In this document: piece by piece, positions 7,852 to 12,687 of the stretch
Layout of the letters: every line of letters begins with the position of its first letter
Position numbering within the stretch: the stretch's first letter is position 1
Source: a virus
Virus record (IMG/VR): IMGVR_UViG_3300022539_000516
Direction: 5' to 3' (one strand)
Length of the DNA: 64,000 nucleotides
The notes under the pieces: model-generated
What the model saw: only the letters and a program-made list of their open reading frames with translations
What the model was told of the DNA's origin: nothing
The model's database searches: none
Position numbers and translations under genes: made by a program

Positions 7852-8280
7852 TTGAAAATGGAAAAAAAGTTTAAGGTATGGAATACTGAGAGCAAGAAAA
7901 TGTGTGGTACATACACATTGACAGAATTACTATTACTTAATGCCAATGAAGCCTATGTTGCCGGTATTGTTGAAGCTTTACAACCTGTAAAGTGTAGAAA
8001 ATTAGAACCAAAAATAGAAGATTGGAATCATCTGATATTTCTAGAGTCTACTGGTCTTCCAGATAAAGATGGAACAGAAATATTTAAAGATGATATTTTT
8101 GAAACATCTACAAATAGAAGAGGTAAAGTTGTCTTTAAAAACGGAGGATTTGTTCTAGAATTTTATAAACCTTTAGAACAATGTCATCTAGTATACTTTA
8201 TTAAAAATGGTAAAGTTCTTGGTAATATTTATGAGAATCCTGAACAAGTAATGGAACTTCCCAACAGGAATATGGAATAA
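7852..8280 (+). CDS. YopX family protein
   Basis: KFKVWN, STGLPDKDGTEIFKDDI, VLGNIYENPE. Confidence 0.85.
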   Translation: MKMEKKFKVWNTESKKMCGTYTLTELLLLNANEAYVAGIVEALQPVKCRKLEPKIEDWNHLIFLESTGLPDKDGTEIFKDDIFETSTNRRGKVVFKNGGFVLEFYKPLEQCHLVYFIKNGKVLGNIYENPEQVMELPNRNME

Positions 8281-8281
8281 A

Positions 8282-8680
8282 ATGAACGCACCTAGAATTT
8301 GGGATAAAAAGAAGAAGATTATGTATCATCCAGACCAAGTGTGTCGTTTACACTTTACCAAAAGTAAACTATATGGGGTGGTTCTATGGGATGGTAGTAC
8401 ATTATTTAATAAAGATTTTATAGCTTTAAAACCTACCGGTCTTCCAGATAAAAACGGGACAAAAATATTCGAAGGAGATATTTGTAAAGATTATATGGGG
8501 TATTTACATAAAGTGATTTGGGATAAGAAATACCTTTCTTTTATGTTCGAAAGAGCTGATGGAACACTATTATCTGGCGTGGGACAGAATGCAGAGGGTT
8601 TTCAAGCAGAAGTCATTGGTAATATTTACGAAAACCCTGAATTTGAATTTAAACCCTTAAAACAAAAAAGGAGGAAATGA
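8282..8680 (+). CDS. YopX family protein
   Basis: TGLPDKNGTKIFEGDI, EVIGNIYENPE. Confidence 0.85.
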   Translation: MNAPRIWDKKKKIMYHPDQVCRLHFTKSKLYGVVLWDGSTLFNKDFIALKPTGLPDKNGTKIFEGDICKDYMGYLHKVIWDKKYLSFMFERADGTLLSGVGQNAEGFQAEVIGNIYENPEFEFKPLKQKRRK

Positions 8681-9216
8681 TGGAAATAACCATCACTGAA
8701 GCACTTGCTGAATTGAAAACAATCAGTAAAAGAGTAGAAAAGAAGGAACAATTTGTTTCTCGTTATCTATTGAGACAGGAAGCACTGAAAGACCCATTAG
8801 AAAAAGATGGTGGTTCATTTAATGCAATTCAGGAAGAACAACAGGCTATCCATGATTTGCAGGAGAGAAAGATTACAATCCGGAGAGCGATTCAGGAAGC
8901 TAACATGGAAGAATATATTGTACTTGGCAAAACAAAAAGAACTATTGCCGACTGGCTCGTATGGAGACGAGATGTTGCGCCATATACTAAAAACTTCTTT
9001 GATGTTCTGTCTTCTCAGATTGAAAGAACAAGAACTGAAGCAACAAGAAAAGGTTTAACAGTAGTAAGTGGGGAAGCAAGTAAACCAACTGATATTGTGG
9101 TTAATTTAAACGAAAAAATATTGTCAGAAAAAATAGAAGCATTAGAAGAAGTTCTTGGTACATTAGATGGACAGTTATCGCTGAAAAACGCAACGATTTT
9201 AATTGATGTTAAATGA
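8677..9216 (+). CDS. coiled-coil protein, DIP1984/DUF6847-like
   Basis: MEITITEALAELKTISKRVEKK N-terminus and LSLKNATILIDV C-terminus resemble this family (recalled, not searched). Confidence 0.5.
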   Translation: MMEITITEALAELKTISKRVEKKEQFVSRYLLRQEALKDPLEKDGGSFNAIQEEQQAIHDLQERKITIRRAIQEANMEEYIVLGKTKRTIADWLVWRRDVAPYTKNFFDVLSSQIERTRTEATRKGLTVVSGEASKPTDIVVNLNEKILSEKIEALEEVLGTLDGQLSLKNATILIDVK

Positions 9217-9240
9217 ATAAAATGTTCATTGAGAATTAAA

Positions 9241-9586
9241 TAGCCTTCGGCAACGAAGTGAGAGAAGAGTTTGGGATAAATTGTGGACTTGAAATCCACC
9301 AGCGAGCCATGTAAAAATGGCATGAACTAACTCTTAGAAAGCTCAGAGCTTAATTCTCAAAGATACTTCGTTCAAGTCTGAAAGCGCAAAAGGTAAAAGC
9401 TGGTCGAAATCCGTTGTAAACCTAGTCGTTGCAGAAATGTAACGAACATCCACCCCCAAATAGGATGTTCTCAGGGTAACGGCTGTTGTTTGGAGGCTTT
9501 TAGAAATAAAATAGGTCGGTTGCGCATCTTTATTGCGTCACTTCTCGTGAAGAAACCCGATGTACCTGCCGATTGCCAACCGGCCT
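9241..9586 (+). ncRNA. candidate ~345-nt structured RNA directly downstream of the coiled-coil gene
   Basis: no + strand ORF; stems AAGAGTT/AACTCTT, GTGGA/TCCAC, GCCAT/ATGGC, CGTTGCA-GAAA-TGTAACG, GAACATCC/GGATGTTC, AGGTCGGTTG/CAACCGGCCT. Confidence 0.65.
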
Positions 9587-9611
9587 GTTAAACTAATAGA
9601 AAGGAAGAACT

Positions 9612-9860
9612 GTGTCGAAAACACCATATATCGGTTTTGGTAATGATACTTTAGACCAACAACCGAGTGTAAAAAGGGGCGATTTAATTATATGTCCTAT
9701 ATGTGAAAATCGGCATAAGTTGGAAGGTACAGAATCAGAAGATGGAGTAAAAGACCTTATTTTGTTTTATAAATGTGGTGAAAAATTACGTCTTGGCGCA
9801 GTTGATGGAAAACTCGTCGCAAATCTTAAAGTTGATTGTTCTGGTGAAATTGAATTATAA
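9612..9860 (+). CDS. small zinc-ribbon hypothetical protein
   Basis: CPICENRH...FYKCG; GAAAGGAA RBS, GTG start. Confidence 0.6.
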   Translation: MSKTPYIGFGNDTLDQQPSVKRGDLIICPICENRHKLEGTESEDGVKDLILFYKCGEKLRLGAVDGKLVANLKVDCSGEIEL

Positions 9861-9861
9861 T

Positions 9862-10008
9862 GGGCCGGTTGTGGCGTGGTAGCCTAACAATGGTCTTAAC
9901 GGGAGACGCGACCTCCCACGCCGTAACTCGTAGGTATGGTTTCTTGTTGCGAGTGACAAAACAAAGAAAGCCCCACTTGTTGCAGACCAACTGCCAACCG
10001 GCCCTCCA
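9862..10008 (+). ncRNA. intergenic structured element C (GGCCGG-closed)
   Basis: GGGCCGGTTG 9862-9871 pairs with CAACCGGCCC 9995-10004; internal GGCGTG/CACGCC, GGGAG/CTCCC, ACTCGTA/TGCGAGT. Confidence 0.6.
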
Positions 10009-10910: not shown

Positions 10911-11357
10911 ATGAAAGAAATACTTGGGGACCTCTTTGAGCAAAAAGATGCTGATGCTATCTGTATAACTACTAATGGTTTTATCAAAAGGAATGGCGAA
11001 GCTGTTATGGGCAGAGGTTGTGCCAGAGAAGCCGATGAAAGATGGAAATGTGCTAAAGAAGTAGGAGACATTCTGAAAGAGTATGGTAATAATGTCCACA
11101 TACTTCGACATGGAATACCACATACAGTGGTAATTTTTCCGGTGAAATATCATTGGAGGCAAAAGGCTGATTTGATACTTATTAAGAGGTCTACTCAGCA
11201 GTTAGTGGAGTTAGCTGACCGTCTCCACTGGAAGAGAATTGTGGTTCCAAGGCCGGGGTGTGGTAATGGAGGTCTAAGATGGGAAGTGGTCAAACCTGTC
11301 CTTGAACCAATCTTAGATGATAGATTCTTTGTGATAACGAAGGTTAAAAAGAACTGA
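10911..11357 (+). CDS. macrodomain (ADP-ribose-binding/hydrolase) protein
   Basis: GDLF..ADAICITTNG..VMGRGCA, FPVKYHW, VPRPGCGNGGL. Confidence 0.8.
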   Translation: MKEILGDLFEQKDADAICITTNGFIKRNGEAVMGRGCAREADERWKCAKEVGDILKEYGNNVHILRHGIPHTVVIFPVKYHWRQKADLILIKRSTQQLVELADRLHWKRIVVPRPGCGNGGLRWEVVKPVLEPILDDRFFVITKVKKN

Positions 11358-11697
11358 AAGAAATGGAAGATTTAAAATAATGAAAGACTTTAAACTGGAA
11401 TTTTTATCCTCCGGTTCTATAAGGGGGAGACAAATTATCCTTGATTACTTTGATAAAATGAAACAGTTAAAAGGAGGAAAAATGATTCTAGATGATGCAA
11501 TTCTTGCTTTGCTAACTCAGAAAGTATGGAGTGAAAATCAAATAACTGCTTTACAGGAACTTTCATATGAGGACATTGATATAGAAGAAAAGGTGAATGG
11601 AGATATAAAGCGACTACGGGGTAGAATTGAAAGCTATAGCACAGCTATTGATATTTTGAGCAAACATGCAAAAAAATCCTTATAAGGGAGAGTTTAA

Positions 11698-12687
11698 ATG
11701 AAAATTATCAAAAATATTGTAGTACCAACTGGTAACATTTTAGTAGTCGAAGGTGAATATGGATTACTTGAAATGCTATCTTTGGGCGATTACGGAAAAT
11801 CTAACAATTTAATAATGCTTCTAAAACCGGAAGATAGATGTAAAGATTTTCCTTTAAAATCTGTAAAGCATACCAATTTATTGCCTCTCGAAACAAAGTG
11901 GGTCATTACTATTTCAAGCCAGTATGGATGTGGTATGGGCTGTAACTTCTGTGATGTTCCTGAAGTAAAATGGAATGGAAAAGATGCTTCTTTAAAAGAC
12001 ATGGTTCATCAAGTGCTTACAGGAATAAAATTGCATCCTGAAATAGTATTTACTAAAAGATTAAACATTCACTTTGCCAGAATGGGAGAACCAACATTTA
12101 ATCCTTATGTATTAGATGTTACTAAATGGCTTAAAACACATATAGACCCTGAGTATCATATCCATCCAGTCGTATCAACAATAATGCCTAAAAATCATAA
12201 ATGGTTAAAAACTTTTATCCATAATTGGATGAGAATAAAAAACAGGTTATTGTATGGAGAAGCAGGATTACAATTAAGCATTAATTCCACTGATGAGAAA
12301 GAAAGAGAAATAATGTTTAACAATAATGCTTGTAGTTTAGAAGAGATTGCAAAAATTATGGAAGGAATTATTCCCAATGGTCGCAAGATAACTCTCAACT
12401 TTGCGGTAGCAAAGTATACTATTGACCCACAAGTTTTGTTAAAGTATTTTGACCCTGAGTATTATGTAATTAAATTGACTCCGATGCATAAAACGACAAC
12501 GGCCAAAAAGAACGGAATAAAAACCCCCGGTGATTATACTACAATTTATCCCTATATAGAAATAGCTGATAGTCTTCGACAAGCAGGGTATGATGTGTTA
12601 GTTTTTATTGCTTCTCTTGAAGAAGATGAAAGTTCAATAACTTGTGGAAATACGGTCTTAACTGAAATGACTAGGGTATCTCCATGA
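11698..12687 (+). CDS. RlmN/Cfr-like radical SAM protein
   Basis: ISSQYGCGMGCNFC (CxxxCxxC), RMGEP, LQLSINS, C-terminal ITCG. Confidence 0.8.
   Translation: MKIIKNIVVPTGNILVVEGEYGLLEMLSLGDYGKSNNLIMLLKPEDRCKDFPLKSVKHTNLLPLETKWVITISSQYGCGMGCNFCDVPEVKWNGKDASLKDMVHQVLTGIKLHPEIVFTKRLNIHFARMGEPTFNPYVLDVTKWLKTHIDPEYHIHPVVSTIMPKNHKWLKTFIHNWMRIKNRLLYGEAGLQLSINSTDEKEREIMFNNNACSLEEIAKIMEGIIPNGRKITLNFAVAKYTIDPQVLLKYFDPEYYVIKLTPMHKTTTAKKNGIKTPGDYTTIYPYIEIADSLRQAGYDVLVFIASLEEDESSITCGNTVLTEMTRVSP

What the first reader, a model, noticed from the sequence alone, without database searches (positions are those of the whole stretch)
8677..9586. Coiled-coil protein followed by a ~345-nt structured RNA with an (A)AAG-repeat linker
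Seen: after the stop there is a 5' multi-stem domain (AAGAGTT 9265-9271/AACTCTT 9329-9335 enclosing GTGGA-CTTGAAA-TCCAC and GCCAT/ATGGC). It is followed by an A-rich stretch with seven AAAG-like units (9337-9400), a GNRA hairpin (9427-9444), an 8-bp hairpin (9444-9470) and a 10-bp closing stem (9513-9586). Long-range GAAGTGA 9255-9261/TCACTTC 9538-9544 pairing is also possible. Inference: a protein-ncRNA pair in which an oligomer of the upstream DIP1984/DUF6847-like protein binds the repeat linker. I recall similar gene-plus-gap arrangements in other genomes but cannot cite a characterised function.
Basis: partly seen in the sequence, partly recalled or inferred. Interest (0 to 1): 0.7.

Follow-up and report, generated by a model that had tools for sequence, protein, structure and literature searches.

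The report
Phage protein-RNA pair with tRNA slot
Right behind a small helical-protein gene, this large phage encodes a real, knotted 257-base RNA with nine evenly spaced 7-base units; gene and RNA travel together in about 70 unrelated phages, often with a whole tRNA built into the RNA, and they match no described RNA family, so they are probably an undescribed protein-RNA particle.

Summary

- **Extent:** the conserved RNA is 9242-9498 (+), about 257 nt, not about 345 nt.
- **Fold:** a 13-bp closing helix, a pseudoknot (UGAGA 9259-9263 with UCUCA 9469-9473), a variable domain, nine heptads of consensus AAAGNUN (9338-9404), and a four-helix 3' domain with a GNRA hairpin.
- **Support:** on 48 distinct relatives, 92.7% of cells pair (66.9% shuffled, 39-46% slid). 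36 of 38 pairs show compensatory changes.
- **Outside the conserved RNA:** the 9513-9586 stem and the GAAGTGA/TCACTTC pairing.
- **Linkage:** 71 of 74 usable loci carrying the protein hit the RNA model at E<1e-5, and the other 3 hit it more weakly. No other neighbouring gene is conserved.
- **tRNA:** 20 of 70 loci have a complete tRNA (13 anticodons) nested in the variable domain. Others have circularly permuted tRNA-like modules.
- **Protein:** it has the DIP1984/DUF6847 fold (3KDQ) and is predicted to self-associate.
- **Catalogues:** no Rfam family matches, and no paper found mentions the pair.

Function is unknown. The best reading is an RNP in which the protein oligomer binds the heptad array.

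This scan has already noted DIP1984-like gene plus heptad-RNA pairs on other DNA (at least 8 notes). The nested tRNAs appear to be new.

The parts
8677..9216 (+). Gene for the 179-aa partner protein (ATGATG start; a 178-aa form from 8680 is also on record). Four long helices forming two helical hairpins on a small beta base; DIP1984/DUF6847 fold.
   Evidence: ORF. More than 1150 homologs, the best 120 listed at 54-84% identity. Alignment A1. AF2 pLDDT 87.6. 3KDQ match. Predicted self-association.
9242..9498 (+). Whole conserved structured RNA (about 257 nt), probably co-transcribed with the gene. No promoter-like site lies between the stop codon and the RNA.
   Evidence: nhmmer. RNAalifold. 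Pair counts. Window coordinates. 3' border from L105. Promoter scan.
9242..9254 (+). P1 5' strand (AGCCUUC GGCAAC). Pairs with 9485-9498 with one bulged U.
   Evidence: 13 pairs, 11 with compensatory changes, 90.4% of cells paired.
9255..9266 (+). Conserved junction GAAGUGAGAGAA. Its UGAGA (9259-9263) is the 5' strand of the pseudoknot.
   Evidence: MI/APC pairs 20-164, 22-162 and 24-160. 95.4% paired, with all 5 pairs showing a double change.
9265..9335 (+). Variable domain. Here it is two hairpins inside AAGAGUU/AACUCUU, one with an anticodon-loop-like CUUGAAA loop. In relatives it is 47-160 nt and often a tRNA or a tRNA-like module.
   Evidence: The enclosing helix is not conserved.
9338..9404 (+). 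Array of nine heptads, consensus AAAGNUN. Four units, then one irregular 8-nt unit, then four units. The first and last units are AAAGCU. No covariation, so probably single-stranded.
   Evidence: Periodicity. Logo. No covarying pairs in this stretch.
9412..9481 (+). 3' domain. P3 9412-9415/9478-9481; P4 9420-9423/9474-9477; P5 9426-9433/9438-9445 with GAAA loop 9434-9437; P6 9447-9450/9464-9467. The pseudoknot 3' strand UCUCA is 9469-9473.
   Evidence: Every pair of P3-P6 shows compensatory changes; 88-100% of cells paired per helix.
9485..9498 (+). P1 3' strand (GUUGUU U GGAGGCU).

Best explanation
A self-contained, horizontally mobile two-part cassette of phages: a DIP1984-fold helical protein and a dedicated structured RNA that work together as a ribonucleoprotein.

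**Shown**
- The RNA is real and folds into a closed, pseudoknotted scaffold (P1, PK, P3-P6).
- It holds two exposed modules. One is a single-stranded array of nine AAAGNUN heptads of nearly fixed length. The other is a size-variable slot that, in relatives, holds a tRNA or a tRNA-like module.
- Gene and RNA are almost never found apart, and they share no other conserved neighbour.

**Inferred**
- The protein self-associates, and its subunits read the heptads one per unit. The model is TRAP on G/UAG repeats, or HutP on NAG-N4 repeats, which also have a 7-nt period.
- The knotted core fixes the geometry.
- The tRNA/tRNA-like slot couples the particle to tRNA or translation biology, or serves as an expression slot for phage tRNAs.

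The cellular role is not known. The cassette sits among early and accessory genes, so my best guess is host take-over or counter-defence.
For: **RNA is real**
- 92.7% of cells pair, against 66.9% shuffled and 39-46% slid. 36 of 38 pairs have compensatory changes, and 0 of 500 shuffles reach the observed values.
- An independent hmmalign-based count agrees.
- RNAalifold finds 30 of 42 pairs with double changes.

**Linkage**
- The RNA model hits 71 of 74 usable loci at E<1e-5 on the gene's strand, and the other 3 more weakly.
- No other ORF family is shared by more than 8 loci within +-3 kb.
- An RNA-first pattern scan returned only loci that also carry the gene.

**The RNA acts in trans**
- The RNA lies upstream of the gene in L037 and L056.
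- In L002, L020 and L026 the RNA lies about 400-560 nt beyond the stop codon, and an ORF of 84-147 aa starts within 20 nt of the stop.

**Heptad array**
- The 7-nt period and the 4+1+4 logo.
- No covariation inside the array.

**Protein**
- AF2 pLDDT 87.6.
- 3KDQ is the top match over the full length.
- Conserved basic and aromatic residues include W93, W96, R97 and R98.
- Self-association model, with 4 copies: score 0.62 against 0.01 for the best of 3 controls.
- That mark was reached by 20 of 30 proteins solved as pairs of one chain, and by 1 of 23 solved as single chains.
- The runs agree in at least 91% of contacts, and the partner's pLDDT is at least 81.
- Caveats: my own alignment and four copies differ from the calibration. 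A 4-chain crystal of a 17%-identical relative exists, so likeness may contribute.

**tRNA slot**
- 20 of 70 loci have an ARAGORN tRNA between the stop codon and the array.
- 18 of 48 variable domains have a canonical T arm, against 0.04 expected.
- 10 of 48 have a CYUGAAA hairpin, against 0.015 expected.

**Generality**
- DUF6847 genes in 20 of 401 genomes sampled from one bacterial phylum have their own covarying downstream RNA.
- T5.085 plus a 363-nt gap holding heptads.
Against: - There is no direct evidence that the RNA is expressed as a discrete species.
- There is no evidence that the protein touches RNA. No tool here models protein-RNA contacts.
- The protein has no known RNA-binding domain.
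- PHROGs files its nearest family as 'tail fiber protein'.
- Helical-hairpin folds match many unrelated proteins at Z about 8-9.
- The heptads could be read by a host factor instead.
- Co-occurrence alone would also fit an RNA that regulates the protein, or one that neutralises it.
Confidence: 0.6

Rival explanations
1. tRNA-centred device. The scaffold exists to express, protect, present or process a tRNA or tRNA mimic. It could be a decoy or spare for host anticodon nucleases. It could also be a tmRNA/YrlA-like molecule whose tRNA-like domain engages the tRNA or translation machinery. The protein would act as its chaperone.
For: - Complete tRNAs of 13 anticodons are nested inside P1/PK in 20 of 70 loci.
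- Circularly permuted tRNA-like modules (T arm, acceptor stem closed by a loop, D arm) occur in L019, L060, L064, L065 and L068. This was read by eye.
- T arms and CYUGAAA loops are far above chance.
- T5's distant copy sits at the edge of the tRNA and stable-RNA region, on the same strand.
Against: - The window's own RNA, like most of the 70 (50 have no ARAGORN tRNA), has no tRNA by ARAGORN or Rfam. Yet it keeps every core helix and the heptads, so the tRNA is optional.
- The tRNA identity is not conserved.
- No tag reading frame is evident, and a 7-nt period is incompatible with coding.
Confidence: 0.15
2. Toxin-antitoxin-like pair (type III logic). The helical protein is harmful, for example membrane-active like other helical-hairpin proteins. 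The repeat RNA sequesters it until a trigger releases it.
For: - A tight two-gene cassette that moves between genomes.
- A repeat-bearing RNA next to a small protein.
- Weak fold likeness to ESCRT-III, PspA and YaxB hairpins.
- The family is historically mis-labelled 'septicolysin' in annotations.
Against: - The repeats are 7 nt long and not tandem processed units of about 36 nt.
- There is no nuclease fold.
- PADLOC has no match for the window protein or for two of three relatives; the third gave only a weak, unrelated JetD hit at E 0.0025.
- Type III antitoxin RNAs lack an elaborate pseudoknotted scaffold.
Confidence: 0.1
3. Cis-acting element of the protein's own mRNA: a 3' stabiliser, a processing site or an autoregulatory operator, rather than a trans-acting RNP component.
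For: - In most loci the RNA starts 3-26 nt after the stop codon, on the same strand.
- No promoter-like site lies between them in the window.
Against: - The order is inverted in L037 and L056.
- In L002, L020 and L026 the RNA lies about 400-560 nt beyond the stop codon, with an ORF of 84-147 aa starting just after the stop.
- About 260 nt with a pseudoknot, nine heptads and a tRNA slot is far more than a stabiliser needs.
Confidence: 0.08
4. Stand-alone ribozyme or ligand-sensing RNA whose link with the protein is only regulatory.
For: Unpaired junction nucleotides are highly conserved (GCGAAG, AAANCC, GGCUG), and the fold is pseudoknotted.
Against: - No Rfam ribozyme or riboswitch matches even at E<=10.
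- Downstream genes differ between loci, so there is nothing to regulate.
- This reading does not explain the heptad array.
Confidence: 0.05

Closest known systems
DIP1984 family / Pfam DUF6847 (PF20935; crystal structure 3KDQ), function unknown
   Same: - Same overall fold over the whole length (Z 10.9, 151 of 152 residues; Foldseek probability 0.99) and similar size.
- The sampled bacterial members also have a covarying RNA of about 200 nt right after the gene.
   Different: - Sequence similarity is below Pfam's cut-off.
- The bacterial RNAs do not match this RNA's profile.
- I saw no heptad array in the bacterial RNAs.
TRAP with trp-leader G/UAG repeats, and HutP with hut-leader NAG-N4 repeats (own knowledge)
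   Same: A protein oligomer reads a single-stranded row of short, evenly spaced purine-rich units. HutP's NAG plus 4 spacers also gives a 7-nt period.
   Different: - Those proteins have unrelated folds.
- Their RNAs are mRNA leaders that control termination. They are not closed pseudoknotted scaffolds with a tRNA slot.
- Binding is not shown here.
Ro60/Rsr with bacterial Y RNAs (YrlA), and tmRNA with SmpB (own knowledge)
   Same: - A dedicated protein plus a non-coding RNA whose ends form a closing stem.
- The RNA carries a tRNA-like module. The permuted modules in L019, L060, L064, L065 and L068 have the tmRNA/YrlA topology, in which the anticodon stem leads into the rest of the RNA.
   Different: - There is no Ro or SmpB gene nearby and no Rfam Y RNA or tmRNA match.
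- The window's copy has no tRNA-like module by any tool.
- There is no tag ORF.
Phage T5 gene T5.085 and the unannotated 363-nt gap behind it (AY543070 43142-43504)
   Same: - A distant protein match to the family profile (E 4.3e-5).
- Same strand, with a run of AAAG heptads.
- A closing helix and the AAACC...GG-CUG frame, read by eye.
   Different: - The matches are weak: the RNA profile scores E 0.0026, over the heptads only.
- The protein is longer (212 aa).
- Homology of the whole RNA fold is not established.

Membership tests
DIP1984 / DUF6847 (PF20935) | Match to the Pfam model above its gathering score (27 bits) | tested here: not met
   The window protein has no hit at E<=0.1. 5 of 25 relatives hit only sub-threshold, best E 0.0022. 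NCBIfam gives nothing.
DIP1984 / DUF6847 (PF20935) | Fold of the family's solved member 3KDQ: two helical hairpins on a small beta base, about 150-180 aa | tested here: met
   Foldseek probability 0.99. VIA Z 10.9 over 151 of 152 residues, the top of 48,161 chains. Atlas DUF6847 clusters at TM 0.63-0.77.
Any Rfam 15 family, including RAGATH-27 (RF03100) | Covariance-model match | tested here: not met
   Nothing at gathering score in the window except a tRNA elsewhere. Nothing inside 9217-9611 at E<=10. RAGATH-27 is absent from T5 and from three family records.
tmRNA / SmpB | tRNA-like domain with a chargeable acceptor end, plus a tag reading frame | tested here: not met
   ARAGORN finds no tmRNA in the window or in 75 downstream regions. 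The single-stranded part has a 7-nt period, not a 3-nt one.
Y RNA (YrlA) / Ro60-Rsr | Ro/Rsr gene beside the RNA, and a Y-RNA model match | tested here: not met
   No conserved neighbour besides the 179-aa gene. No Rfam match.
Y RNA (YrlA) / Ro60-Rsr | tRNA-mimic module with a closed acceptor stem | tested here: inconclusive
   Seen by eye in L019, L060, L064, L065 and L068, with canonical T arms in 18 of 48 domains. Absent from the window's copy.
TRAP / HutP-type periodic binding arrays | Evenly spaced short purine-rich units in single-stranded RNA | tested here: met
   Lag-7 autocorrelation is 0.41, against about 0.2-0.25 at neighbouring lags. The logo is AAAGNUN x9, with no covariation.
TRAP / HutP-type periodic binding arrays | Partner protein of the TRAP or HutP fold, binding shown | tested here: not met
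   The fold is a helical bundle of the 3KDQ type. Binding is not testable with these tools.
Type III toxin-antitoxin (ToxIN-like) | Tandem repeats of about 36 nt upstream of an endoribonuclease toxin | tested here: not met
   The units are 7 nt and lie downstream of the gene. There is no nuclease fold. PADLOC has no match for the window protein or two of three relatives; the third gave only a weak JetD hit at E 0.0025.
Prefoldin | Coiled-coil hairpin on a beta-hairpin base that oligomerises through the beta strands | tested here: inconclusive
   Residues 2-79 align to filamentous gamma-prefoldin 6VY1 at Z 9.1, within the range common for helical hairpins. The predicted self-interface runs along helices 2 and 3, not the strands.

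The most novel reading that the evidence does not exclude
A widespread ribonucleoprotein class, so far undescribed, shared by phages, bacteria and (per earlier notes of this scan) archaea. A DIP1984-fold oligomer is laid out on a heptad 'ruler' in a knotted RNA. In the phage branch the RNA carries a tRNA or a tmRNA/YrlA-like tRNA mimic. The particle would then act on the host's tRNA or translation machinery, for instance as a decoy or shield against anticodon nucleases during infection.
Probability: 0.2. Interest if true: 0.9.

Novelty: categorically new. Interest (0 to 1): 0.8.

Why it matters
- The RNA is as well supported by covariation as many riboswitches and is present in dozens of unrelated phages. 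It has no Rfam entry, and its partner belongs to a protein family that no paper in the searched library mentions by name.
- Dedicated protein-RNA particles are few in bacteria and phages (RNase P, SRP, tmRNA-SmpB, Ro-Y RNA, CRISPR and OMEGA effectors). Each has turned out to be mechanistically important.
- The nested tRNAs and permuted tRNA mimics give a concrete, testable hint at the function.
- The probable distant copy in phage T5 would make the question experimentally accessible in E. coli.

Tried and rejected
- **Rfam:** gathering and E<=10 searches found nothing in the region.
- **Phage GenBank BLAST:** neither the DNA nor the protein found anything.
- **Covariance model:** I used nhmmer profiles and my own pair counts instead.
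- **Family-wide P2 helix around the variable domain:** not supported.
- **Loop-array kissing:** pairing of CUUGAA (loop) with UUCAAG (array, 9371-9376) is possible in the window but not in the other CYUGAAA-bearing relatives I looked at, by eye. I treat it as coincidence.
- **Coding reading of the gap:** no + strand ORF of 40 aa or more lies in 9217-9611, and the period is 7, not 3.
- **Riboswitch or leader for the next gene:** downstream genes are not conserved.
- **PADLOC:** no match for the window protein or two of three relatives; the third gave only a weak JetD hit at E 0.0025.
- **PDB sequence search:** only noise.
- **PF20935 in eight MAG and virus records carrying the cassette:** no match.
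- **Literature:** searches for DUF6847, DIP1984, PF20935, 3KDQ, T5.085 and descriptive terms found nothing relevant.
Full report
**Setting**

The window is AT-rich (G+C 0.33) and packed with small same-strand ORFs. Around the finding lie:
- two YopX genes and an RNase H-like exonuclease upstream;
- zinc-ribbon ORFs, a macro domain and a radical-SAM protein downstream.

The protein of ORF 8677-9216 is on record from a 134.5-kb contig. Its relatives come overwhelmingly from IMG/VR viral contigs and from phage-like contigs in MAGs. This is the early or accessory region of a large phage.

**The observation**

The 395-nt gap folds better than shuffles on the + strand (z -3.1) but not on the - strand (z -1.0). 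Rfam has nothing there, at gathering score or at E<=10. ARAGORN finds no tRNA or tmRNA there.

**Relatives**

- The 179-aa protein has more than 1150 homologs; the best 120 listed are 54-84% identical.
- I fetched 78 loci with a profile of 25 of them.
- The window's gap, used as an nhmmer query against the 700 nt behind each homolog's stop codon, hit 41 loci at E<=0.004. These loci span G+C 0.34-0.69.
- Profiles built from a first alignment (A3) then found the 3' two-thirds of the element in 71 of 74 loci with enough DNA, at E<1e-5.
- The other three loci hit at E 1.2e-5, 0.0096 and 0.12. All hits are on the gene's strand. The window has a single copy.
- No other ORF family is shared by more than 8 loci within 3 kb. 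The gene and the RNA therefore form a two-part cassette that moves between otherwise unrelated phages.
- An RNA-first pattern scan of the viral collection returned three true RNA loci, each with the gene, plus seven chance matches.

**Structure**

RNAalifold on 14 sequences predicted 42 pairs, 30 with double changes. I aligned 48 distinct sequences to the profiles and ranked column pairs by mutual information. That recovered all helices and an unexpected pseudoknot between the conserved 5' junction and the 3' domain.

| Element | Window coordinates |
|---|---|
| P1a | 9242-9248 / 9492-9498 |
| P1b | 9249-9254 / 9485-9490 |
| Junction GAAGUGAGAGAA | 9255-9266 |
| Pseudoknot | UGAGA 9259-9263 / UCUCA 9469-9473 |
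| Variable domain | 9265-9335 |
| Heptad array | 9338-9404 |
| P3 | 9412-9415 / 9478-9481 |
| P4 | 9420-9423 / 9474-9477 |
| P5 (GAAA loop) | 9426-9433 / 9438-9445 |
| P6 | 9447-9450 / 9464-9467 |

On an independent MAFFT alignment of the 48 sequences (A5):
- 92.7% of cells form standard pairs, against 66.9% in shuffles and 39-46% when partners are slid by 1-3 columns;
- 36 of 38 pairs have compensatory changes;
- no shuffle of 500 reaches any observed measure.

The closest relative, L105 (protein 84% identical), keeps the RNA up to about 9506. After that it is unrelated. So the window's 9513-9586 stem, and the GAAGTGA/TCACTTC pairing that reaches into it, are not part of the element.

**Heptads**

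Between the variable domain and P3 there is no covariation. There is a clear 7-nt period: identity autocorrelation is 0.41 at lag 7 and 0.36 at lag 14, against about 0.2-0.25 at other lags. The 3' domain is flat.

The column logo reads as four AAAGNUN units, one irregular 8-nt unit, then four more units. The first and last units (AAAGCU) are almost invariant. The array's length is nearly constant across the family.

**Variable domain and tRNAs**

- This slot is 47-160 nt long.
- In 20 of 70 loci, ARAGORN calls a complete tRNA between the stop codon and the array, on the same strand. There are 13 different anticodons, and L023 has two tRNAs.
- Where the 5' profile also hits, the tRNA is nested inside P1 and the pseudoknot.
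- In L019, L060, L064, L065 and L068 the order is T arm, acceptor 3' strand, a short loop, acceptor 5' strand, D arm. The flanks form the anticodon stem. This is a circularly permuted tRNA-like module with the topology of the tmRNA or YrlA tRNA-like domain. I read this by eye; it is not model-scored.
- Canonical T arms occur in 18 of 48 variable domains, against 0.04 expected.
- Hairpins with a CYUGAAA loop occur in 10 of 48, against 0.015 expected. The window has one at 9285-9301. L105 has the same loop on its second hairpin.
- A helix enclosing the slot, as in the window, is not general.

**Protein**

- No Pfam or NCBIfam family reaches threshold. PHROG 1491, labelled 'tail fiber protein', matches at E 3e-13.
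- The AF2 model (pLDDT 87.6) has four long helices forming two hairpins, plus short strands at their base.
- Its best solved match over the whole length is 3KDQ, the DIP1984 protein of Corynebacterium diphtheriae: Foldseek probability 0.99, and VIA Z 10.9 over 151 of 152 residues.
- Atlas clusters carrying DUF6847 follow at TM 0.63-0.77. DUF6847 appears sub-threshold in 5 of 25 relatives.
- A four-copy model supports self-association: score 0.62 against 0.01 for the best of three controls.
- That mark was reached by 20 of 30 proteins solved as pairs of one chain and by 1 of 23 solved as single chains.
- The runs agree in at least 91% of contacts, and the partner's pLDDT is at least 81.
- The interface runs along helices 2 and 3.
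- Caveats: my own alignment and four copies differ from the calibration, and a distant relative has been crystallised with four chains.

**Beyond this family**

- Bona fide DUF6847 genes occurred in 20 of 401 genomes sampled from one bacterial phylum.
- The 200 nt behind them are conserved and non-coding. They contain T-arm-like hairpins and long-range helices, with double changes in 18 of 23 predicted pairs.
- These RNAs match neither my profiles nor Rfam.
- Earlier notes of this scan describe DIP1984-like gene plus heptad-RNA pairs in at least eight other genomes. One note names phage T5.
- I tested the T5 claim. The family profile hits T5.085 at E 4.3e-5.
- The 363 nt behind T5.085 are unannotated. 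They hold a run of AAAG heptads, a closing helix, and the AAACC...GG-CUG frame, the last two read by eye.
- My RNA profile hits the T5 heptads only weakly, at E 0.0026.
- T5.085 lies at the edge of T5's tRNA and stable-RNA region, on the same strand.
- The same note's nearest family, RAGATH-27, matches neither T5 nor three members of this family.

**Interpretation**

Shown:
- a real RNA with a defined pseudoknotted fold;
- near-obligate linkage with the gene;
- a periodic array with no covariation, so probably unpaired;
- a slot that often holds a tRNA;
- a partner protein of the DIP1984 fold.

Inferred:
- The two form a particle.
- The protein oligomer reads the heptads. I take the cognate protein as the most economical reader because it is the only constant companion.
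- The tRNA slot ties the particle to tRNA biology.

Inverted or interrupted gene-RNA order in five loci argues for action in trans.

Rivals that remain open are a tRNA-centred decoy or carrier, a type III toxin-antitoxin-like sequestration, a cis-acting mRNA element, and a stand-alone ribozyme or sensor. None is excluded. Each fits fewer of the observations.

**Novelty**

Searches of the paper library for DUF6847, DIP1984, PF20935, 3KDQ and T5.085 found no relevant paper. Descriptive searches gave nothing comparable.

The pair has been noted repeatedly by this scan on other DNA. The nested and permuted tRNAs, the pseudoknot and the exact borders are worked out here.

Noticed in passing
window 9507-10003: Between the RNA and the next conserved gene lies a window-specific stretch. 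It holds a strong stem (9513-9586), a small zinc-ribbon-like ORF (9612-9860) and a G+C-rich foldable segment (9861-10003, z -2.3). TGCCAACCGGCC occurs at 9573 and, with one mismatch, at 9991, and its reverse complement GGCCGGTTG lies at about 9863. The closest relative lacks the stem. This may be a small inserted element.
   Followed up: partly
L079-L100 (genomes sampled from one bacterial phylum), about 200 nt after each DUF6847 gene: True Pfam DUF6847 genes carry their own conserved downstream RNA. It has covarying long-range helices (GGUAG/CUACC; GAGYRC/GYRCUGA), a T-arm-like hairpin and a 3' GUGAGGGUGGG motif. It has no Rfam match and no match to the phage RNA profile.
   Followed up: partly
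L104 1143-1505 (- strand) = phage T5 AY543070 43142-43504: The unannotated gap behind T5.085 holds a run of AAAG heptads, a possible 12-bp closing helix and an AAACC...GG-CUG frame. T5.085 matches the family profile weakly. The locus borders T5's tRNA and stable-RNA region.
   Followed up: partly
L019, L060, L064, L065, L068 (variable domain of the RNA): Circularly permuted tRNA-like modules: T arm, acceptor stem closed by a 7-nt or longer loop, D arm, with the flanks forming the anticodon stem. This is the topology of tmRNA and YrlA tRNA-like domains. Read by eye only.
   Followed up: partly
L065 3866-4612: A second, 44%-identical paralog of the protein follows the RNA directly (protein, RNA, paralog). 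No second RNA copy was detected.
   Followed up: no
L037 2137-2297 and L056 2786-2944: In these two viral contigs the RNA lies upstream of the protein gene, on the same strand, instead of downstream.
   Followed up: partly
window 7852-8680; L106 188-1778: Tandem YopX paralogs sit directly upstream of the cassette: two in the window and several (three Pfam-annotated) in the closest relative's contig.
   Followed up: no
window 10911-12687: A macro-domain protein (10911-11357) and a radical-SAM protein (11698-12687) lie a short way downstream, in the same orientation. They are typical phage accessory genes.
   Followed up: no
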